Shown here piece by piece: positions 3,792 to 36,671 of a DNA stretch of 64,000 nt. Location of the stretch: contig NC_090346.1 in the NCBI RefSeq assembly GCF_035084215.1, positions 48,608,001 to 48,672,000 on the forward strand. Reading direction: 5' to 3'. The number at the start of each line of letters is the position of its first letter. Position 1 is the stretch's first letter. Made by a program: the position numbers and the translations under genes. Source of the stretch: Heptranchias perlo. Taxonomy: Eukaryota. Below the pieces are notes generated by a model that was not told where the DNA came from, did no database searches, and was given only the letters and a program-made list of their open reading frames with translations.

Positions 3792-4911
3792 TTACAATAC
3801 AGTATCCACTAGTTTGTTTGGTGTTTCCAAGATTAATTTTCTTCTTTCTACTGCGGAAAGAATTTTTTTCCGTGGTCCAAGTGGCAGATGGATGCCTTTC
3901 AGATCTTCGTCAGAACACAGCATGAGGGAATCTAGGTCAATCTGCTCTCTTGCAAGGAAAGGGATGAACTCCATCATGTTCTGAGATGCCAGGAAGACTT
4001 CAAGTGGTGTTGTCTCAGGCTCGTCATCATCCAGACCTATATCTTCCTCGTTCCAGGGCAAATCATCTTCCTCTTCTTCATTGAATCCATCAAGGATTTC
4101 AGGATTTGCAAACTTCTCATTAGGCTTCAACACTTCACGACGTAATTTGGAACCAACATCTTCCATCTCATTATTGGTCAACACTTCCTCTTCCACATTC
4201 AAGCCAAAGACAAAGTTTCTTCTGAAAAGCATATTTCCCAAACCAGGACGATTGAAGAGAGACTCATGTCCGAAATTATCACCATCTTCATTAGAGGCTG
4301 CACTCCCCTCATCTCTTTCATTAAACATGTCCAATACATTGCCCCGTACCCCACTGCTCCCTTCTTGAGTTACAAAGATGACATCCTTTCCTAGTTGCTG
4401 CTCCGAAATGTTTTTGCTGCTTTCCTTCTTCCTAAGTTTCTTCTGCAGGGATCCTTTCATGATGGAAGAAATGGGACCTGTTCGTTGTGATCCACCCATT
4501 TTGAAGAGATCACTAACACTAGATACAGTCCCACCCTGTGCATGTGCAGCCCCACTGCTTTTGGCTTCCATCTCCCGGGTATATTTCTTGTTCATTTGAT
4601 TCTGGTGCTTTTTCTTGCGTTTTTCACACTCTTTGATCTGTTTCTCTGCTTCCTTCCTCGCCTTCTCCTTTAGCCTGGTGACCTGTTTCGGATTCATCGT
4701 TGTTTGCTTAGTGGCTGCCGTGTCTAGGAAGCGGACGCATTCCATTCGATCCTTATTGGCGGCAGCGTCCATCGCGGAATGGAAGTCGTTATCCAGAGCC
4801 CAGATGTTTGCACCAAAGTTGACCAAGAAAGTGACAATGTGAAGATGGCCATTGGTTGAAGCATGGTGCAAGGGAGTGTTGCCCCAGATGTCACATATGT
4901 CAGGGTCACCT
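3792..4911 (-). CDS. ANKS4B: ANKS4B coding exon 2 (ankyrin repeats, central region, SAM domain, C-terminal PDZ-binding motif DTVL)
   Basis: ttttttcAG acceptor, then GDPDICDIWGNTPLH..., central motif SLFNRPGLGNMLFRRN, SAM domain (QIDLDSLMLCSDEDLKGIHLPLGPRKKIL), stop TAA at 3792-3794. Two-exon structure and residues NFGANI.ALDND and MNPK.VTRLKE favour ANKS4B over its paralogue USH1G. Confidence 0.92.
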
Positions 4912-5427
4912 CTGAAAAAACAATCATAAAGAGTTGGTTTGATACAGGGTTTCACAATAAGTAGCAAGTCTGTTCCTTTCTGCCTCTCTAACTTTGCCCT
5001 CTTGGCCATCATCTCCCCAAGGGGTCTCGATGTCAATGGCCCTCTGACACCGTACCCAAGCGGCCACTCTCGATACATTAGCCTGGACAACGAGTGTTGA
5101 TTGTTGATCTGACCGTGAAGCAGTCACAGCCAAACCTGTTCTAACTTGTCATCTGCACTTGAACACTTCCAGCAAAGGACAGTGGATCAGAAGCAGAAAA
5201 CATGGCTGATTTCCTCCATCCCCTCCTTAATTCAGGAACGTCGAAGCTATCTATAGCTTCGCCAATTCCCTAATGAGATGTAACTAGCAAAGACCAGCTA
5301 GCTCAGTGCAGACTATGGAGTGAAATTAGGACCTGTCCAGTCTAGTGTCACACTGAGCAGTCCAATTAACAAGATGACCACCGCCAGAGCACATATGACA
5401 CCTTTAACCATTGGTGGACAGAATGTT

Positions 5428-13819: not shown

Positions 13820-13888
13820 ATGAAGGGCACCGCCGGCGCTCCCATCGCTTCTTACGAGACGCTTGTCCACGCCGTGGCCGGGGCGGTG
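13820..13888 (+). CDS. SLC25A17: SLC25A17/PMP34-like peroxisomal carrier, exon 1
   Basis: MKGTAGAPIASYETLVHAVAGAV then GTAAGT donor; lies in a CpG-rich stretch; matches the PMP34 N-terminus (SYESLVHAVAGAV). May be the slc25a17-like paralogue. Confidence 0.88.
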
Positions 13889-17456: not shown

Positions 17457-18321
17457 GTGAGTATTATATAGAGTCTAGAGCACAGAAACAGGCCGTTCGG
17501 TTCAACTGGTCTGTGCCAGCGTTTATGCTCCACATGAACCTCTTCCCACTCCTCTTCATCTCACCCTATCAGCATATCCTTCTATTCCTTTCTCCCTCAT
17601 TTGCTTAAATAGCTTCCCCTTAGTAAAGAGTGCTGATCTTAAAACAGCTGTGACATTATGCAATTGATTTATTTTGTGAGCAGTGCTCACCAGGCAGCAC
17701 CAGTGTGCAAAGTAAGCCTGCTTATTCCTATTTTTCTTTTGTATTTATTGGAAGTTAAGTTTCAGGAGTAAGTGGTATGTCCAAATGTGGCACCTTAATT
17801 AGTGCCAATGCAATTCAAACATATTAAATTATGAGATTTTTAAAAAAGTTTTAATTGGGCATTCTTCTTGAAGTAAAATTAAAGAGGGAAGGCTGCAAAT
17901 GCTGGAAATACACGGGTCAATCAGCATCTGGGAAGAGAAAAGACGGGTTCTGGTGTTTCATCAGAGAACTACACTCACTCTCTCTCACACTCACACGTTT
18001 TTCTTTCTTTCCAATTGCTGACTGACCTTCACAAAAAAAATTCTGTTTACAAATGATTCAAATGAAAGAGATTTCTGGCAGCATTTGTAGGTGTAACTGC
18101 TATGACCCAGGAATGAAGTACAGTGAGAGAAATGTCGGAATGTGTAATTTACAACAGGCTGTTAATTACTACAATTCTGGGACAGGCTTGATGGACCTGC
18201 TGCCCTTTTCCTGCCCGTCAGTTTCGTATGTTCAGAAGTACTTGTTGGTTCGGATTGCTAGGAGGGATTCAAAATGTCAACCCCCAAAATGCTGAGACTT
18301 TCTTTTCTCCGTCTGTTGCAG

Positions 18322-18476
18322 ATCGGCTCTATATCGTGGATGGTTCCCTGTAATTTCTAGCCTCTGCTGTTCAAACTTTGTTTACTTCTACACGTTCAAC
18401 AGCCTGAAAGCAATGTGGGTGAAGGGTAATACCAGGGCTACACCAGGCAAAGATCTACTCATGGCGTGCATTGCAG
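18322..18476 (+). CDS. SLC25A17: SLC25A17-like exon 4
   Basis: ttgcAG / [35 protein letters not shown]...[10 protein letters not shown] / GT. Confidence 0.92.
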
Positions 18477-18767
18477 GTACAGAGGGATGTTTAATGGGGT
18501 TGCAAATTGCCCAATGTAACAGATACAGACCCTGTTATTCAAATTGCTCGATTCTAGGTACTCCTATAGTCGAATGCTAATCAGTTAAAAACACTGTTTA
18601 AAATATCACTCCTAGAACTGATGACATAAACCAATTTTTGTTAAGAGAAAAATGAGAAGCTTCATTATCACTCTAATCTTGGTTTCACCATTTTAACAGT
18701 TTATGTTGAAACCTGGAGCGTACAGAAAGGAGTAACATAGGGAATTGCAAGACAGTACAATTTTTTA

Positions 18768-19395
18768 AAAAAAGCATATGGGATCCTTGGCTTTATTAAT
18801 AGAGGTATAGAGTACAAAAGCAAGGAAGTTATGCTAAATCTTTATAAAACACTGGTTAGGCCTCAGCTAGAGTACTGTGTTCAATTCTGGGCACCACACT
18901 TTAGGAAGGATGTCAAGGCCCTAGACAGGGTGCAGAAGAGATTTACTAGAACGGTACCAGGGATGAGGGACTAGCGAAGCTGGTGGTGTTCTCCTTAGAG
19001 CAGAGAAGGTTAATAGGAAATGTGATAGAGGTGTTCAAAATCATGAATGGTTTTGATAGAGTAAATAAGGAGAAACTGTTTCCTGTGGCAGAAGGGTCGG
19101 TAATGGGAGAACACAAATTTAAGGTGGTTAGCAAAAGAACCAGAGGCGACATGAGGAAATTTTTTTTTAAGCAGCGAGTTGTTATGATCTGGAATGCACT
19201 GCCTGAAAGGGCGGTGGAAGTAGATTCAATAGTAAATTTCAAAAGGGAATTGAATACTTGAAATGGAAAAATGTACAGGGCTATGGGGAATGAGCAGGGG
19301 AGTGACTAATTGGATAGCTCTTCCAAAAACCCAGCACAGGCATGATGGGCCGAATGGCCTCCTCTGCGCTGTACCTACTACGATATTATGATAAT
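18768..19395 (+). mobile_element. CR1 LINE 3' fragment
   Basis: YKTLVRPQLEYCVQFW and FFFKQRVVMIWNALP remnants; gggccgaatggcct tail. Confidence 0.9.
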
Positions 19396-19737
19396 ACAAT
19401 TGAGGGTCTCAGAGGATGGTGCGTTGTAAGTGAATAGCCTGGTGTCATTTAAAAAATGGCTGTCCCAGTCTAAGTAAGCAGATTGCTGCAAGATTCAGGT
19501 TTGATTCCCACTCTGCTGCTTCAGCAGATCTTGATCAAGACACTACAATCGGTTTTAGGCGGTAAAAGGTCAGCCAGGAGTGCAACTTCTGATCGCTATT
19601 CAGCAATTCCTGTTGGACAATGGGTGGGGTGGGGAGACTGAAACAAGCTCAGCAATGATGGCCCCTGGGCGCAGGTAGCCTGCTGACACCTGCTGCCTAA
19701 GGTTACTTGGCCACTAGGGCGAGATGCTGGAGAGCTG

Positions 19738-19974
19738 CAAGGCCTGAGAGGTGAGCGTCTTCAGTACAAGGCCTGAGAGGTGAGCGTCTTCAGTACAAGG
19801 CCTGAGAGGTGAGCGTCTTCAGTACAAGGCCTGAGAGGTGAGCGTCTTCAGTACAAGGCCTGAGAGGTGAGCGTCTTCAGTACAAGGCCTGAGAGGTGAG
19901 CGTCTTCAGTACAAGGCCTGAGAGGTGAGCGTCTTCAGTACAAGGCCTGAGAGGTGAGCGTCTTCAGTACAAGG
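19738..19974. repeat. 29-bp perfect tandem repeat, 8 copies
   Basis: Unit CAAGGCCTGAGAGGTGAGCGTCTTCAGTA; I saw no mismatches between copies. Confidence 0.97.
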
Positions 19975-20072
19975 GAGAAAATTAGGGAAGAGGATGGAAT
20001 GCTTTCTGCTGTAATGTTTTCTGACGTTTGTGATTTATTAGTGGCTCAAACAATAACATTACTTGTTATTGG

Positions 20073-20366
20073 TGATGTGGAGATGCCGGTGACGGGCTGG
20101 GGTGTACAAATGTAAGGAATCTTACAACACCAGGTTATAGTCCAACAGTTTTATTTGAAAATCACAAGCTTTCGGAGATTATCTCCTTCGTCAGGTGAGT
20201 GAGTGAAAGGTTCTCAAATCGCATATCTTATATTAGGCTGGGACACGATCACACCAATCAAAGGTGTCGTTGGTGTTCAGACAGGTTAGCCACGGAAAAC
20301 AGTACATCCCAGTATACTGAATACACAATGGGTCAGATTACACAGACAGATCGAGAAAGAGACCCG

Positions 20367-20399
<33 letters not shown>

Positions 20400-20400
20400 A
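20073..20400 (-). mobile_element. Penelope-like terminal fragment with 9-bp target-site duplication
   Basis: TGTTATTGG at 20064-20072 and 20401-20409 flanks it; terminal sequence shared with 50525-50820 and 5982-6032; contains a hammerhead core. Confidence 0.75.
20162..20198 (-). ncRNA. Minimal type I hammerhead ribozyme motif
   Basis: UCAC-CUGACGA-A-GGAGA(UAA)UCUCC-GAAA-GC-UU-GUGA: intact core boxes, 5-bp stem II, 4-bp stem I, palindromic AGCU in place of stem III. Activity not shown. Confidence 0.7.
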
Positions 20401-22308
20401 TGTTATTGGAATTGAGACGGATGAAATACTGGAGTGCAATAGTAATATTTCACCTCTTCTCCCCAATATGCCTCTGAAGTACCTTGAGATTTTTTTCTGT
20501 ATTAATGGCACTATATAAATGGAAGTTGTTGCTGTTTTAGTATTACAATTGATGCAAAAGTATAGAAGCAAGTAACCTAAGAGCCTTAAAGTTCATGGAT
20601 GTGATGTTACTGCTCTTTAGTTCCGGAATGGTTAATGACAAACACTGGTAAAATAAGCGGTCAAAACAATCACAATAAAGATGACTTTTATTTTGTACAA
20701 CTTCACAATACACTTGGCTGCTCCTTGCATTCCTGAAATTTTAATTTGAAAATCTGTATCATGCATGCATTGGAACAAGTGCCAAGGCTATAAAACAAGA
20801 GATTGTTTTTTCAAAGAAAGGAAGTCTGTACTTGAACAATGAGGCTGCAGCTGGCCTGTGAAGAGGGCTTGTGATTGGCCATGGTAGTGGACTGTGAAAA
20901 ACAGCAAAAGTAAAATTCTTGAACTTTGTTTCAAATTACCTTTTTTTTGTGTGGTGGGGGGGAGGGTTGTCATTTGTTTAATTGGGTCGGGCAATTATGA
21001 GGAAAAAGCAGCATGCAGGGTTTTGCTGACTGCTCAGTTGGTTTATCCATTGAGGAACTGAGCAGTTCAGATAAGGAGCATCCCAAGTTCAGCTCCTCGT
21101 TCTACATTAGTTCATCTTAGCTGGAGCAGTGGGGGTAGGCTTTGTTTAGTTGGCCTTGGTGCCTGTGAGTTAGTGGGGCGGGGGGGATATTGGCCAGGGT
21201 TCCCACTCCTGACATCTGTCCTGCTCGAAGACATGTGTGTGGCCATTATAATGAGGAAAGGATTGGGCTTGGTATCTTCCCCCACCCCCTCCCCCAATCC
21301 CAACTGACCAAAGCGCCTCGCTCAAGGTTCACCCATGGAGAATGACCATGTGGGCAAGGAATTAGCATCAATGGAACTGCAACCCAGTAAGGAATCAACA
21401 CCTCAAGAGGAGGAGAGAAAACTGATGGAGAGGAAATGCAGCATGGGACTGAGGTTGGGTTGATGAAACAGAAGCAAAGATCACTAGTCTTTCTAATCAT
21501 GGGGATTGATAGGTTGGTAAATGGAAGGGCTGGGGAGGGGGAATTCAGATAGGAAAGGAGAGTTCGGGTACAGGCACAGATCAGACAAAAATACAGTTCT
21601 GCTGGCTCAAATCTCAAGTGAAATGATGTTGCATTTCATTATCATAAAAGCTGAAAACAGTCCCTCTCCACCCAGTTTGTTGTTGGTGAGTATTCCTTAA
21701 AAAAAAATGCTAAAGATGGTGGGGTCAATAATTATCACCTCCTTCCAAGTCCTTAGGAGGCTGGTGTATGCCAGTGAGACAAGCTGATATGATTATAGGG
21801 AACACAACAAGAAGTTGCATTTATATAGCGCCTTTTAATGTAGAAAAATGTCCCAAGGCACTACATAAAAATTCAAATCTTTCTCAAAGTTGATTTATGA
21901 TGGGGGAGTTGGCGTAACATGTTTAACAGCAAACTGGAGGACTAAACTCCCTTCAATAGACCCTAACTGTCCTAATGACAAACTGAATGTACCCAACATT
22001 TGAAGGAGAGAAAACAGTACAATACAATTGCTTTGCTGATATAATCCATTTTGAAATGAAATTCAAATCTTCAGTGTCACTCTTGACATTGTGCTTTAGC
22101 TAAACCAGTAGGGCAGCTATCAGTTCTTCAGATAGAATGTGAGAATTGTTTAATGGTAAAAGCCCATTCCAGTGCTGCACACTGTGGTATACTGTGCAGC
22201 AATTAAAGATTCATCAGTTGTACATTGGCATACAGTGATCAACCTGTACTTACTGAAGGACCATCAAAATGGGGATAGTCAGAAATAACAGCCAGTTTGT
22301 TTTATTAG

Positions 22309-22425
22309 GTGCTACTAATGTTCTCCTAACTACACCAATGTGGGTAGTCAACACAAGATTGAAACTACAAGGAGCAAAATTTAGAAAGGAGGATATCCAT
22401 CAGACTGAATACAAGGGTATTCTAG
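22309..22425 (+). CDS. SLC25A17: SLC25A17-like exon 5
   Basis: [39 protein letters not shown] with AG and GTGAG boundaries; the P-x-W-V-V-N-T-R motif is typical of PMP34. Confidence 0.93.
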
Positions 22426-23385
22426 GTGAGTCTTCCAATTGGGTAAATTCACTAATTTCTGAGTTAGTAATACAAAGAACAAAAGTACACTGTGGTAATA
22501 AGAAGGGTGTGCGAGGATGTCAAAAAGTAACGGAACCCTTCCACTGTTAAATTGAAGAAACTAACTAAAGGGAGCTAGTGAGTGTGATGGTGTGGAAAAT
22601 CAGAATTTACATGACCACTTGCTTTGTATCAATTTTAATTTTTAGTAATGATGAACCATTACATTAAAAAAAAATCTTTAGAATTGGTTCTGTGAATGTA
22701 GCAAATATTGAAGTTGGGGTTCTTCCCCCGTCCCTCCCTCCCTCCTTGAACCGCCATACCCCAATATCGGAAATGTAAATGTTCTTGTTCCACACTGATC
22801 AAACTGTGACTCTCCCCTCATGATTTCTCGCCTGTTCCCTTTCTCCACAGATCCCCGACTGGGATTGAGAACTGTACGGAACAGCACTCGACCTGCATGT
22901 GGCGCCATGCGTTGGTGCACCAAAGCTAGCACACAGTTTTAAATATTAAAAACTGTACTTTGTAGATAGTTTATTCAAAGAAAAAACAAGCTTCATAATA
23001 TTCACAGCATTTGGCTGAGGGGGTAGAATAGATGGGAGGTAGGTGTTCTTTTCTGTTTGAGGTGGATTTTGGGGTGGGGAGAGAAGAGGCTTCTCATTCT
23101 CTAAATCACCCTAAACTACCTACACAGCGAAGTGCAGATGTTGTTCACCTTCTCTTTGGTTTAGCGGAATTCTACATTTAAAAGGCAAGTTAGAATTCAG
23201 CTGCCACAGACTCTCATTTATAATGATGTTAGAAGTCATACAGAACACTTGCAGTACCATACTGAGGAATGCGACAGGCCGTTATATTTGCTGTGGGAGG
23301 GGTCGTAATAAACTTGCAGTCGGTCAGAAGCTGAGATGTGTTGGGGAGGTGTTGTCAAACTTAACAAGTGTCCCTTTCTCTTTAG

Positions 23386-31399: not shown

Positions 31400-32445
31400 C
31401 TACAAAGACAAGGTTGACACAGTCAGAACTTCCAGGTGCCTTTGCTGTACCCATTGTTAAGCTGTGTCCCATTTAGCAAAGTTTCGTTGTACAATTGGAG
31501 CTAAAGTTCCTACAGCCTCATTGTACACAAAACAGGACTGTGGCAGCTGTGTAATAGCAGGAGTAACAGGGTGCATTGCAATTCGAGGATCCAGAAGGAG
31601 GTCTCAATAGTGTCTCTTGGGATAGTGAGAGGTTTGACCTGCCTCCCACTCAGAATGAACAGTTCATATTTAATTTGCAGACTAACAATGTCCTGGCTGA
31701 CATGAACAAATTCAGGAAACAGCAGGTTTGTATTGTGAATTATGCCGATAAAGTGAAGAATGAAATTAAGTTTTTTTTTTGAAAAGAGGTCTGCTTTACT
31801 TGTTTTTTTCCTCATGTGATCATTCAGCTAATGAATGCACTCACATAAACACCTTCCCTCTGGAGAGTTGCCATTCCCCTCCCCCCCCTTTGAATTGTGA
31901 CACTCTTTACTCTGGCTTCCACCTTTCTACTGGGAGTGGTTCTGCCAAGGGTTTGTATAATCAATATCTCTGTTCTGACCTGCTACTATCTTTCAGTCTC
32001 TTCACCTACAGTAGTTATTGATACTGTTTGTCTTCAGTGTTTCTGGTATATTTTCTTCAATTGAAAATTTATAACTACAATAGCAAAAAAAAGTGCAATA
32101 ATTCTATTGTTTATAAATGAGCTATTTCCAATTTCAAACATATCTTTGGTCCGGCTGGAAAACAGAACAGATCACTGATTGTTAAGTTCCATTTACACAG
32201 TTTTTACAAACCTGTAGTAATTTTATCCTGAGGTTGAACTGTAGCAGGCCACGTACATGCATATTTACCATTCGTAAGACTCTCCAAAATCACTTCAGTC
32301 AAGCATCTCAAACAACTCTGCAGCTGTGCCCTGCAGGTGTTTACGGGAGTGTAATCACTAGCTGGATATGCAACAGACAGGTTGACATTTAGAACTGGTT
32401 AATTTAACCTTCTTCGTGCAAGTGCAGGAGGCAAAGGCTACCAAC

Positions 32446-32665
32446 CTATGAAAATTCCTCTCTTGGTTTGGACTGTAAATCTCCCTGCTTGTCTTTAGCT
32501 CCAAATAACACTGTGGGGCCTTTAAGCTAGGGTCAGAGTTGTCTTTGCAGTCCACCTCACCGGAGAATACGAGTGAGTGGCCGTTGAGCCGAGTTCGAAC
32601 CACGGAACAAAATGCTTCGTTGGTGTTTACCACACCCGCTGGATTAGGATTCCCATCTGGTTTAT
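32446..32665 (-). CDS. DXO: DXO coding exon 3
   Basis: DKPDGNPNPAGVVNTNEAFCSVVRTRL...FSGEVDC...YLELKTS...; catalytic EVD and ELK motifs intact. Confidence 0.93.
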
Positions 32666-33969
32666 CTGAAAGAAATACCGTGAATATTAGTTAATTTTGC
32701 ACTTTCCTATCCTCATCTTCTAGGGGCACTCACTCTTGCTAGGGTACAATTCTAGGAGTATCAGGCAGCCTTCAATACTTCATTTATATGGCTATTCTTC
32801 ATGCATAAGCCTGTACCGTGAGTGTTGGCAGCTGTTTGATCATGAAGGGTATCTACATAAGTGCATATTCCAGTGATCATTGAATAGTATTTGAAGCAGG
32901 AGCTCTGGCTCGTTCTCTTCCCCCCAGGGAGACTGAGGCCAATTGCAGTGCCTCACATGCTGCCCTGGCAGAGACCAGGATCTTTATTGGCCTAAAACAA
33001 ATAAGATTTAAGGAAAGATTGCCAGTGCAAACCAGATAACTACAAACAAAACACCTCTGTTCTTTGATAGTAGGGGCTTTCAATAATTATTTGGGAAATT
33101 CTGTGAAGATTTTGTATACCTCTATCTGTATTTATCTTTATAACCCTTAGTCCTAACAGATGTTTGTTTGAAAAAGGCTGAACAAATAACAGTGATCACA
33201 CCTGCCATTCAGTTTGGAGTTACAAACTTAATCTCCTTATCCTTCAAATGTGATTGGATATGCACTAGTCTTGTTAGGATTCAGTAAAGTGAAGGGGGTA
33301 AGAAAGCTTCATTCTGTGTCCACTTAAACTGTGAAAAATACCCAGCACCACAATTATGCTGGAGAGACTAATTTGAGATCTATAACATGGGGTTGAAATG
33401 CTGGTAGCTACAGGTCTTTCAGGAGAAATGTGAGATGATTTATGATTTTTGTTTCAGTATTAAGGTTGAAACACTACATCAAGTGAACCGCGTTTGATAG
33501 ACTGGATCTGTCAAAAATTCTTTGAAGAATGTGAACTGAATGCCGCACAGAAGTATCGCGGACAACTTTGAGTAATAGTCCAAGCACTGAGTAGCTAATA
33601 TTTTAAGTTTAACATTTCGCTGTTGATCAGTGTCTTAGTCTATTTTTGTAGTTCTGCTAATTTGATTTTTAGTTTAGTACAGCATTAAAGTGCATAAGTG
33701 CAATTTTCCCCTATAGCATATGAATATCAATATATTAAATAAGGTAGTAACACTAATCACATTACTAGGGCAGTGGGTGAACAATGGCATTTTTAACTGT
33801 TTAAAATTTATTTATAGGCTGAGTGTTGTTGTAGCTCTGAGGTCATGGCAACTGATACAAATCAACTCACCGCTGAAAAGGTGAAGTTTTCTTAACTAAT
33901 TTCATCTGATCATAACAATCCTTTGATTTGACGTCCAGTCTGGCCCAAAACAATGGATAAATCTCTTAC

Positions 33970-34196
33970 CTGCACATAAGTACTGTTCAAACTTATATCC
34001 TCCATACATCAATTCCTCCTGCAATTCGGTCCGCTGCTCTCTCTGCCGCCTGGCTTCCTCGGTCTCTACCTCACTCATGTAATAAGTTCTATTAAACCGA
34101 GTCACCGCCATCAGCCAGCCCTCCCGGTTCTCATAAGGAGTGGTGAGCATTTTTGTCAGATGTCCTCTCCACGTGATGAAGTCTGTGTGCAGCTGA
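33970..34196 (-). CDS. DXO: DXO coding exon 2
   Basis: QLHTDFITWRGHLTKMLTTPYENREGW...MYGGYKFEQYLCA; contains the WRG and GYKFE family motifs; AG and GTAAG boundaries. Confidence 0.93.
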
Positions 34197-36082
34197 CTGC
34201 AAGTAAAAATGGACAATTTCTCAAACCAACAAAAAACACACACATGGGGGGAAAAAACCCATCCAGCTTGTAAGTTGTAAAAGAAGGATAAGGCAACCTG
34301 TAGAGGTCAGTCCCTTTTAAACACACAGCTGGTCTGTTTGGATGATGCCCGTTTCCATTGTCCAAAGATAGATTCTATAATAGTCAGGCATGCAATGTGC
34401 ACAATCCCCTGCTTACTCCTCACTTCCTAAGATATGATACTCTTATTCACCGCATGGGACCTAAGTCTGATTTATGAAGACGAGTACTGTAATGCTATTT
34501 TATTTAGCTTCTATATTTTTTAAAAAATAGATCTAGGTTTCATATAACTATATCATCTCTAAAGAAAATCTGTTTTATCCAGAAAGAGCCATGACAAGTT
34601 CTAGGGAAGTGTTCATCAAGAAAAGGTCAACTGACCCGTGTTTGCTCAATGGATGCTGCCTGACCTGCTGCGTGTCTCCTGCATTTTCTGTTTACGAGTT
34701 CTTTTCTCCCTACAGTAATATTGCGTTTATTGATTAACCAGCCAATAGTATGAGATTTCTGTTGCTTTGAGTGTGCTCCATTGTAGTAGCTTTTTTAAAT
34801 ATAATTCTCTGGTGTAACCAGTGCCAGCTCCACTGATGGCTCACTGGGTAAATGCATCACTTGTTTGGTACTAAGCTACACAGCACAGACCAAGAAAGTC
34901 CCAGGTTTGATCGTTGAGTCATTGCTATACATTGCTTATATGCAGACATCGAATGAGCTCAATGCAATGGCCTGCATGATTAATTAGCCCACAGACACAC
35001 GTGGTCTGAACTTACTTATGAAGACTGCCCACTTGCGCAAAGTGCAGATACTTGTACAACTGTATCCCAGCATAGGTCACCAATTTTCAGCAAAGGAGGG
35101 GAAAGGGGAGAAGACTGGAGGGAAAGGGGAGAAGACTGGAGGGAAAGCATATTTTTAAAAAGGTGCAGTGTGCATATTTCGGTTGGGGGGAAGGGGTAGA
35201 GAGAAGGTTGAGCACACTCCTCATGATTAAAAGTAATGAAACTATATAATCTGTGTCTGTGGAAACTCCTTTATGTACAGCAATATTGTACTTTCAAAAT
35301 GGGTATAGCATCCTGGGAATTGTAGTCTTAAGGAGCATTCACTGTACAAATGCAGCACCAGTGCAAAGCTCTTCACTTCACACCACTGCTATGATTATAG
35401 TGCAACTGCAGCTAACACCAGAATACGAGTGGAATGTAAAGCGAAGGGAGAGTAGGTTGGGAAGTCAAGACCCCATTCTATAATTAAAAGACTACTATAA
35501 CATATAAATGCCACAAAGCACTTAGCTACCATACAGTTACTGGCACAAAACAAATTTGGTTACTTCAAAATGATACTTTCATACACAGGTATAATTAATA
35601 ACTAAACATCGATATCATCAAAAATGCTACATCTGCACATATTTCCTGATTGGGGGATGGGCCGACAGTGGGCCTGGGTCCCAGATTGATTGTAAGGGTC
35701 GCATATAAAATGAGCTTGTTCAGTTCCTGGTGGCAAAGTGCAAGACTGCCCTTAATTCAGCACTAAACAGGCACTTTCACTCAGTGGTTTGTGTGCAATT
35801 GGAGGATGTTCTTTTGAAGTTGAAACTGAGGATATAATCGGGACAGAATCAAAGGAACTTCACTCTGCATTTAACTGCACAGTGCTGGGTGCTGACAATG
35901 GATGTCTGAAATAGAAAATGTTCCATTCTGCATCCCTCAGCTTCAAAAGTGGAAAATTCATGTGATTTTTTTTAAATGTTGAGTAAGTGAAATAGACAGT
36001 TCTATCTATCATAAACCTATACTACAAATTTATTATTTTACTATATTATTTACAAAATAAAAAGCTCAATGTCACAACTTAC

Positions 36083-36546
36083 TTGATCAAAGCAGGTGAT
36101 TTATCATCCCCAGACAACATGGGGAATTTGTGTTTGTTTAGTAATATCCACTTCAGGATATGGTCCAGCTTTTCCTTAATGTTTTCGTTCCGTTTTATAT
36201 ATCTGTCTTTGTAACCATCTCGCAGATTGAAATTTGGATTCTTGCTGGTGGGCTCCACGCAGTATTTTAGCTGCCTGGCATCATTAAAGAGCTGTCGATG
36301 TGAATCTAGCGAGAAACAGCCAATCTCAACAGGCTGCCTGTAATCAGGAAAATTCTTGTCATAATAGTCTGGCTGCGCAGGAAGAACACGTTCACAATTG
36401 TCGTCATTGTTTCTGTTTGTGTGTGAAGTGCATTGTTTATCAGTCTCCATTCGCAGTAATTTAATCTGACTCTCTTGTATATCATCTGCTTTTCGTTTAA
36501 AGACTCCCCTGGACGATTCCCTACTGGTATTGAAATGCTGATCCAT
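36083..36546 (-). CDS. DXO: DXO (decapping exoribonuclease, Dom3Z/Rai1 family), first coding exon
   Basis: Acceptor just before 36576, ATG at 36546; MDQHF...FPDYRQPVEIGCFSLDSHRQLFNDARQLKY...NFNLRDGYKDRY...EKLDHILKWI; GTAAGT donor. The start codon is the least certain part. Confidence 0.85.
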
Positions 36547-36671
36547 ATCGTCACTCTTTGATTTAATTAAAAAAGCCTGCAAGAAATTAACAAAAATTAC
36601 AGGTTAAATATAATTGACAGAAACTGGCAATATTATGTTACAAAAGTTTCATTTCAACTGTGGGGAGCCTC

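What the first reader, a model, noticed from the sequence alone, without database searches (positions are those of the whole stretch)
20162..20198. Intact minimal hammerhead ribozyme in a Penelope-like insertion inside a host intron
Seen: the minus strand reads UCAC CUGACGA A GGAGA-UAA-UCUCC GAAA GC UU GUGA, i.e. both hammerhead core boxes, a perfect stem II, stem I (UCAC/GUGA) and a palindromic AGCU with no loop where stem III should be. The host element has an exact 9-bp TSD, which suggests it is young. Established: Penelope-like element terminal repeats carry minimal type I hammerheads thought to cleave as dimers through a palindromic stem III. Inference: this copy could be competent, but it has an extra A after the CUGANGA box and a weak CUU cleavage triplet. 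It is antisense to SLC25A17, so it would not cut that pre-mRNA.
Basis: partly seen in the sequence, partly recalled or inferred. Interest (0 to 1): 0.7.

Follow-up and report, generated by a model that had tools for sequence, protein, structure and literature searches.

The report
Standard hammerhead in Penelope retrotransposon stub
The small self-cutting RNA motif is real and undamaged, but it is one of tens of thousands of near-identical passengers of a common jumping gene in this genome, lies alone and backwards in a host intron, and so likely cuts little or nothing here.

Summary
Observation confirmed. The 37-nt motif is a minimal type I hammerhead in a 328-bp, 5'-truncated terminal repeat of a young Penelope-like element (exact 9-bp TSD), antisense in intron 4 of a spliced mitochondrial-carrier gene. 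It is ordinary: 2,578 identical 37-mers and 84,986 relaxed-core matches genome-wide (control 243). The 'extra A' and CUU are not defects. They are the family consensus, also in intact 891-aa RT/GIY-YIG copies, and the extra base is a published hallmark of these ribozymes. This copy has no tandem partner, and its predicted folds disfavour the active dimer, so cleavage likely needs a second RNA and probably the element's protein. Genomic copies show no pile-up of 5' ends at the cut (32 versus 23 and 54 at neighbouring points, 343 at -28) but cluster just upstream, near a TATA/Inr-like start, so inserted copies likely come from uncut RNA. The scan reached the same reading earlier on other DNA of this and other genomes. 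Best lead in passing: a second, two-ORF, endonuclease-bearing Penelope family with its own hammerhead sits in polarised arrays at chromosome ends, fused in register to TTAGGG repeats.

The parts
20073..20400 (-). 5'-truncated solo pseudo-LTR (3' UTR plus tail) of an EN+ Penelope-like element, 328 bp, no coding sequence
   Evidence: 97-98% identical to 39 other full-length matches; relatives continue upstream into an RT/GIY-YIG ORF; 86% to the pLTR of intact elements
20162..20198 (-). Minimal type I hammerhead: stem I 20198-20195/20165-20162, CUGACGA 20194-20188, extra A 20187, stem-loop II 20186-20174, GAAA 20173-20170, palindrome AGCU 20170-20167, predicted cut between 20166 and 20165
   Evidence: sequence, fold, family alignment
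20064..20072 (.). Target-site duplication, copy at the element's 3' end
20401..20409 (.). Target-site duplication, copy at the 5' junction; 3 nt shared with element sequence (microhomology)
20073..20107 (-). 35-nt Penelope 'tail', ending at the point where the ORF's ATG lies in tandem copies
   Evidence: 3' ends of 93 copies are bimodal at about +55-59 and +92-95 from the cut; ATG at +92; inverted partners stop near element position 293
20226..20232 (-). TATA-like box 38 nt upstream of C3 (predicted promoter)
   Evidence: TATAWR at -48..-30 in 23 of 28 untruncated copies, 0 of 28 in each of four control windows
20201..20207 (-). Initiator-like word; predicted start near 20204, about 6 nt before stem I
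   Evidence: sequence and spacing (inference); 5' junction pile-up
20373..20399 (-). (TC)n tract of the element's 3' UTR in which the 5' truncation fell
20179..20200 (+). Host-sense reading of the hammerhead: pyrimidine tract, CAG, then GTGAGT (acceptor and donor consensus back to back at 20194/20195); use not shown
   Evidence: sequence; no joint at this site among those listed
18477..22308 (+). Host intron 4 of a mitochondrial-carrier gene (SLC25A17-like, name recalled)
   Evidence: exon translation, Pfam, spliced RNA contigs

Best explanation
This is a standard, intact minimal hammerhead carried passively in a 5'-truncated terminal repeat of a very abundant young Penelope-like retrotransposon, and as a lone copy antisense to the host gene it likely cleaves rarely or never. 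Shown: the motif, its family, the TSD, the orientation, and full-length relatives with two same-strand hammerheads about 3.04 kb apart around an intact RT/GIY-YIG frame. Inferred: in the parent element the motif sits at the very front of a TATA/Inr-started RNA; two copies pair through AGCU and swap stem I strands to form a double hammerhead that cuts after CUU, slowly and probably only with help from the element's protein. Inferred: the RNA that is reverse-transcribed into new copies is mostly uncut. Reverse transcription began at the pLTR/ORF junction, ran through the uncut hammerhead and here stopped in the (TC)n tract, leaving this stub. The host pre-mRNA carries the complement and cannot be cut in cis.
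For: Copy number: 2,578 exact, 37,839 with N7 and loop free (control 0), 84,986 relaxed core (control 243). In the first 100 rows, 99 keep a palindromic 15.2/16.2 (91 GC, 8 CG) though the pattern did not ask for it. In 47 flank-anchored copies C3-A9 invariant positions match in 45-46 of 47 each while N7 (42) and the loop and closing pair (15-32) vary, except one loop A (47 of 47). The stem II closing pair occurs as G-C, A-U and C-G in 12 of 18 subfamily representatives. Eight distinct loci among 20 fetched regions have two same-strand hammerheads around a 907-codon open frame, one array with period 3036. ORF: Pfam RVT_1 E 3e-10, nearest Atlas clusters RT/GIY-YIG. 5' junctions: 47 of 93 at -16..-50, 0 of 83 at -2..0; genome-wide 32 at the cut, 54 at +3, 23 at -4, 343 at -28. 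Published: monomers inactive, dimers weak (PMC4209133); the anole Penelope hammerhead cuts only with protein and is dispensable for insertion in vitro (PMC11167929).
Against: No cleavage was measured. The double-hammerhead dimer scores -16.1 kcal/mol, worse than two monomers (-18.6) and a stem-II-swapped dimer (-26.6), and a 132-nt RNA from the predicted start folds without stem I; this fits low activity but also no activity. The 3' flank is nearly as conserved among subfamilies (0.92) as stem I (0.94), so conservation is not confined to the ribozyme, and 6 of 18 representatives break the closing pair. The -28 peak is inflated by TCA/TGA microhomology in inverted copies, and inverted arms were counted separately. 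Upstream repeats of ORF-bearing copies begin 95 to over 1500 nt before the cut, so long copies need read-through or circular templates, not the predicted start. The start site itself was not observed (contigs only).
Confidence: 0.72

Rival explanations
1. The motif no longer cuts; it is kept as a DNA/RNA cis-element (downstream promoter element or binding site for the element's protein) that happens to retain hammerhead shape.
For: No excess of junctions at the cut; 3' flank about as conserved as the stems; active dimer not the predicted minimum; PMC8557442 notes successful PLE clades without hammerheads.
Against: Variation falls at the positions where catalysis tolerates it (N7, loop II) and spares the core; other families in the same genome keep CUGANGA-A-G..C-GAAA with different stems and the alternative palindrome ACGU (648 matches, control 17); the anole motif cuts and is rescued by C3G/G8C.
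Confidence: 0.14
2. Solo copies such as this one are transcribed from their own promoter and cut efficiently in trans by pairing with other family transcripts.
For: The copy keeps its TATA/Inr-like region; partners are plentiful; family sequence is abundant in RNA contigs.
Against: Only 12 intermolecular base pairs; competing folds are more stable; published dimers are weak even in cis; minus-strand transcription of this locus is not shown.
Confidence: 0.09
3. The motif is active as a monomer because stem I extends by 9 bp past a 12-nt bulge that docks on loop II.
For: The MFE of 20150-20225 shows this extension.
Against: Only 62% of cells pair across 18 representatives, RNAalifold does not predict it, its 5' arm lies upstream of the predicted start, and stem III still cannot close without a loop.
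Confidence: 0.04

Closest known systems
Minimal type I hammerheads (min-HHR) in pLTRs of metazoan Penelope-like elements (Cervera and de la Pena 2014, PMC4209133; parts 1-2 of 4 read)
   Same: Core boxes, extra base between 9 and 10.1, G10.1-C11.1, palindromic 15.2/16.2 with no loop, 4-bp helix I, mostly solo copies of truncated elements.
   Different: Helix II is 5 bp (7-8 in the Schistosoma families described); about 85,000 core matches against about 4,000 and 9,000 reported for coelacanth and Xenopus, though by a different search method.
EN+ Penelope-like elements of Neptune/Nematis type (PMC8557442 and PMC3846280, passages)
   Same: Single RT + C-terminal GIY-YIG ORF, CX4CxxC linker, partial tandems, inverted 5' copies, 35-nt tail, TSD, TATA and Inr-like words in the pLTR.
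   Different: Clade not placed on a tree here; this copy is a non-coding stub.
Poseidon element PAc of Anolis carolinensis (PMC11167929; parts 1-2 of 4 read)
   Same: pLTR hammerhead; two 3' end points defining a tail; insertion from uncut RNA.
   Different: In PAc the hammerhead overlaps the start codon and reverse transcription starts 111-118 nt into the ORF; here the ATG is 92 nt after the cut and copies end at or 35 nt before it.
Non-LTR retrozymes (bioRxiv 10.64898/2026.07.22.740005; part 1 of 5 and passages)
   Same: Non-coding, pLTR-derived, type I hammerhead.
   Different: Retrozymes are tandem units with two or more hammerheads; this is a single copy with a Penelope tail and TSD.

Membership tests
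Metazoan PLE min-HHR | CUGANGA, GAAA and UH core around helix II | tested here: met
Metazoan PLE min-HHR | Unpaired nucleotide between 9 and 10.1; G10.1-C11.1 pair | tested here: met
   A at 20187; G-C in 18 of 18 representatives, which were selected on these two bases; 47 and 46 of 47 in the flank-anchored set
Metazoan PLE min-HHR | Palindromic 15.2/16.2 without loop 3 | tested here: met
   AGCU; 99 of first 100 rows palindromic
Metazoan PLE min-HHR | Located in the pLTR of a PLE | tested here: met
Metazoan PLE min-HHR | Self-cleavage as dimer, none as monomer | not testable with these tools
   folding energies only
EN+ Penelope-like element | Single ORF with RT and C-terminal GIY-YIG (in full-length relatives) | tested here: met
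   RVT_1; VVY..YIG and GLN motifs by eye; Atlas clusters with GIY-YIG. Pfam GIY-YIG itself did not hit this ORF
EN+ Penelope-like element | Partial tandems, inverted 5' copies, 30-40-nt tail, TSD | tested here: met
Neptune/Nematis clades | CX2-5CxxC linker between RT and EN | tested here: met
   CX4CxxC in the 891-aa ORF; feature defined
Neptune/Nematis clades | RT phylogeny | not tested
   no named reference set fetched
Non-LTR retrozyme | Two or more tandem hammerhead-bearing units | tested here: not met
   one match in 64 kb
Rfam hammerhead models | Covariance-model hit | tested here: not met
   none at E<=10 in 18000-22500

The most novel reading that the evidence does not exclude
The hammerhead is a dose-sensing off switch at the front of the element's mRNA. 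Because it needs two RNAs to cut, cleavage rises with transcript concentration, removes the capped 40-nt leader and takes those RNAs out of the copying pool; promoter-bearing solo stubs like this one supply the partner strands, so tens of thousands of dead copies act as a ribozyme brake on the live element.
Probability: 0.1. Interest if true: 0.65.

Novelty: new member of a known kind. Interest (0 to 1): 0.2.

Why it matters
This copy matters little: it is a routine passenger. The family is a useful test bed for an open question, what Penelope hammerheads are for, because it offers intact autonomous copies, tens of thousands of insertion junctions and a clear prediction (cut 39 nt from the cap, insertions made from uncut RNA). 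The telomeric second family found while checking covariation would matter more if it holds up, since the papers read tie telomere attachment to endonuclease-lacking Penelope elements and state that those were not found in vertebrates.

Tried and rejected
Chance match: rejected. Rfam: no hit. Extended 9-bp stem I: not conserved. Retrozyme: no tandem unit. Cleavage footprint in 5' junctions: none; of 12 cut-site loci inspected out of 32, one (L168) is a clean truncation at the cut with a TSD, one is a double substitution, the rest are inversions or internal deletions. RNA: no holder was on record as RNA; X1-X4 are contigs of one sample, show spliced host joints, but cannot give strand, starts or ends; no pLTR intron joint and no end pile-up was listed. 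No contig ran over the 19975 end, a part without cover that I do not use as evidence. PDB: no hit for the ORF. Lunse et al. (PMC5785218) is not held; only its title was seen. The rank of CUU among triplets was not found; that it is weaker than GUC, and that the extra base can aid cleavage, is recalled. First part printed nothing (pattern error, redone). The dimer energy for the second family used a mis-sliced sequence and is discarded. In one search the GAAA columns, and the core and TATA, were selection criteria and are not counted as evidence. Supplements of PMC4209133 and of the bioRxiv preprint were not seen and may list shark families.

Full report
Observation. It is the only such match in the window and none of 100 shuffles gave one. 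Stems I and II are the predicted fold, with a modest z of -1.9. Rfam returned no hammerhead. The motif lies in a 328-bp insert, 20073-20400, bounded by an exact 9-bp duplication.

Host gene. Exons on the plus strand near 13820, 16140, 17390, 18322-18476, 22309-22425, 23386 and onward translate to a mitochondrial carrier. Contigs of four runs of one sample join exon 4 to exon 5 and show three more GT..AG joints. The insert is thus in intron 4 and antisense. The gene name SLC25A17 and the guess that the host is a shark are recalled; earlier scan notes also say shark, untested by me.

The element. The insert matches 39 other full-length copies at 97-98% among 40 scored of 2,373 candidates. Relatives continue upstream into a frame that ends about 70 nt before our truncation point. 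A protein search gave many uninterrupted copies. Among 20 fetched regions, eight distinct loci have two same-strand hammerheads around a 907-codon open frame (891 aa from Met), including a head-to-tail array with period 3036 whose units differ at 1 base. The protein has RT (Pfam E 3e-10), a CX4CxxC linker and GIY-YIG-type motifs, and its nearest Atlas clusters are RT/GIY-YIG proteins. Passages of PMC8557442 tie that linker to the Neptune and Nematis clades. The window copy is 86% identical to the terminal repeat of these intact elements, with the same C3-U17 core; a partial tandem of its own subfamily has identical 37-mers 2,997 nt apart around a frameshifted ORF. 3' ends of 93 copies fall mainly at +55-59 or +92-95 from the predicted cut, giving the 35-nt tail.

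How ordinary. The exact 37-mer occurs 2,578 times, 37,839 times with N7 and the loop free and a relaxed core 84,986 times against 243 for the reversed pattern. In the first 100 rows the extra base is A in 97, the two bases after GAAA are palindromic in 99 and position 17 is U in 92. PMC4209133 (parts 1-2 read) names the extra nucleotide, G10.1-C11.1 and the palindrome as conserved traits, and reports no monomer and low dimer cleavage.

In 47 copies picked by a downstream anchor and running through the motif, the invariant CUGANGA positions match in 45-46 of 47, N7 in 42, and most loop and closing positions in 15-32. Among 18 subfamily representatives, mean column conservation is 0.71 between TATA and stem I, 0.94 in stem I, 0.96 in inner stem II, 0.63 in loop II with its closing pair and 0.92 downstream. 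The closing pair appears as G-C, A-U and C-G in 12 of 18 and is broken in 6. The test passes against the 5' flank and loop, and is inconclusive against the 3' flank. Other families in the genome keep the core with different stems and the palindrome ACGU (648 matches, control 17).

Could this copy cut? It has no same-strand partner in 64 kb. The double hammerhead scores -16.1 kcal/mol against -18.6 for two monomers and -26.6 for a stem-II-swapped dimer, and a 132-nt RNA from the predicted start loses stem I; nearest-neighbour energies ignore core tertiary contacts, so this is only suggestive. A 9-bp distal extension of stem I is not conserved (62% paired). In the anole element the motif cuts only with the element's protein, and mutants insert normally (PMC11167929, parts 1-2).

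Footprint in the genome. If cut RNA were copied, 5' ends would gather at the cut. In 93 of the first 100 anchored places, all from the first 15 Mb of one contig, 47 junctions lie 16-50 nt upstream of the cut (about 0.021 per nt), 12 lie between -51 and -320 (about 0.0015 per nt), 19 run further, and 0 of 83 fall at -2..0. Genome-wide, junction patterns give 32 at the cut, 54 at +3 (12 of them on three small repeated contigs), 23 at -4 and 343 at -28. A TATA-like word lies 30-48 nt before C3 in 23 of 28 untruncated copies and in 0 of 28 in four control windows, which predicts a start a few bases before stem I; PMC3846280 notes TATA and Inr-like words in a rotifer pLTR. I infer that short copies run off the 5' end of uncut RNA. 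Caveats: both arms of inverted copies were counted, microhomology sharpens the -28 peak, and ORF-bearing copies start 95 to more than 1500 nt before the cut, which needs longer or circular templates. I reached this, which showed earlier scan notes with the same reading.

Verdict. A real, intact, known kind of motif in a known kind of element; likely silent here. Searches for hammerhead, Penelope and shark together (listings only) showed no paper on this family, but one chondrichthyan was in the retrozyme preprint's sample. Interest 0.2.

Lead outside the finding. 86 of the first 100 rows belong to one family; all 86 lie within about 1.05 Mb of a contig end (lengths) and 78 point away from the end. 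The 7.7-kb unit has a TATA-like word, a GUC hammerhead, a 754-codon frame with a weak GDSL hit (E 0.011) and a 744-codon RT plus GIY-YIG frame (E 1e-8, 2e-6), 33% identical to the window family's protein. Five of five recurring 3' junctions run in register into telomeric repeats, and five 5' truncations are capped by them, one by 715 units to the contig end. Passages of PMC5408684 mention esterases in fish Neptune-like elements, but passages of PMC8557442 and PMC6431247 tie telomere attachment to endonuclease-lacking clades. Searches (listings only) and scan look-ups showed nothing on such a vertebrate element.

Noticed in passing
L187:1321-9022 (-), L189, L196, L197, L199, L201-L203; G000 ends of C1, C4-C10: Best lead: a second Penelope-like family (7.7-kb unit, ACGU/GUC minimal hammerhead, esterase-like ORF1, RT+GIY-YIG ORF2, CCCTAA-rich 3' region) in polarised head-to-tail arrays at chromosome ends; 3' ends join telomeric repeats in register (5 of 5 at one unit position) and 5' truncations are capped by TTAGGG arrays. 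Looks like an endonuclease-bearing, telomere-targeted retroelement in a vertebrate; 8 rows near the start of C1 point the other way.
   Followed up: partly
window 20179-20200 (+): Read in the host direction, the hammerhead forms a pyrimidine tract, CAG and GTGAGT back to back, like a recursive splice site. RNA contigs cover 20410 or 20720 to exon 5 unspliced in all four runs, but no joint at 20194/20195 was among those listed. Every antisense intronic copy of the family would bring this word.
   Followed up: partly
L031-L060, L123-L162: Many family copies are head-to-head inverted pairs whose turning point lies in or just before the 5' half of the hammerhead; one arm has the tail, the other lacks it.
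   Followed up: partly
L073/L074 (G000:C6:66.255-66.267 Mb): Array of one inverted and three direct Penelope units, period 3036, units differing at 1 base; fits a single insertion from a multimeric or circular template.
   Followed up: no
window 20151-20156 (-): AATAAA 9-14 nt after the predicted cut, conserved in most subfamilies; possible poly(A) signal, yet copies end 40-80 nt further on.
   Followed up: no
window about 19745-19972: Perfect 29-nt tandem array of about 8 copies 100 nt from the insertion.
   Followed up: no
window 3795-5123 (-) and 32361-36603 (-): Neighbouring genes: an ankyrin plus SAM protein exon and RAI1/DXO-like nuclease exons.
   Followed up: no
L175 and 13 other rows: Dispersed minimal hammerheads of further, more divergent families with GGG/CCC-type stem II and the ACGU palindrome.
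   Followed up: no
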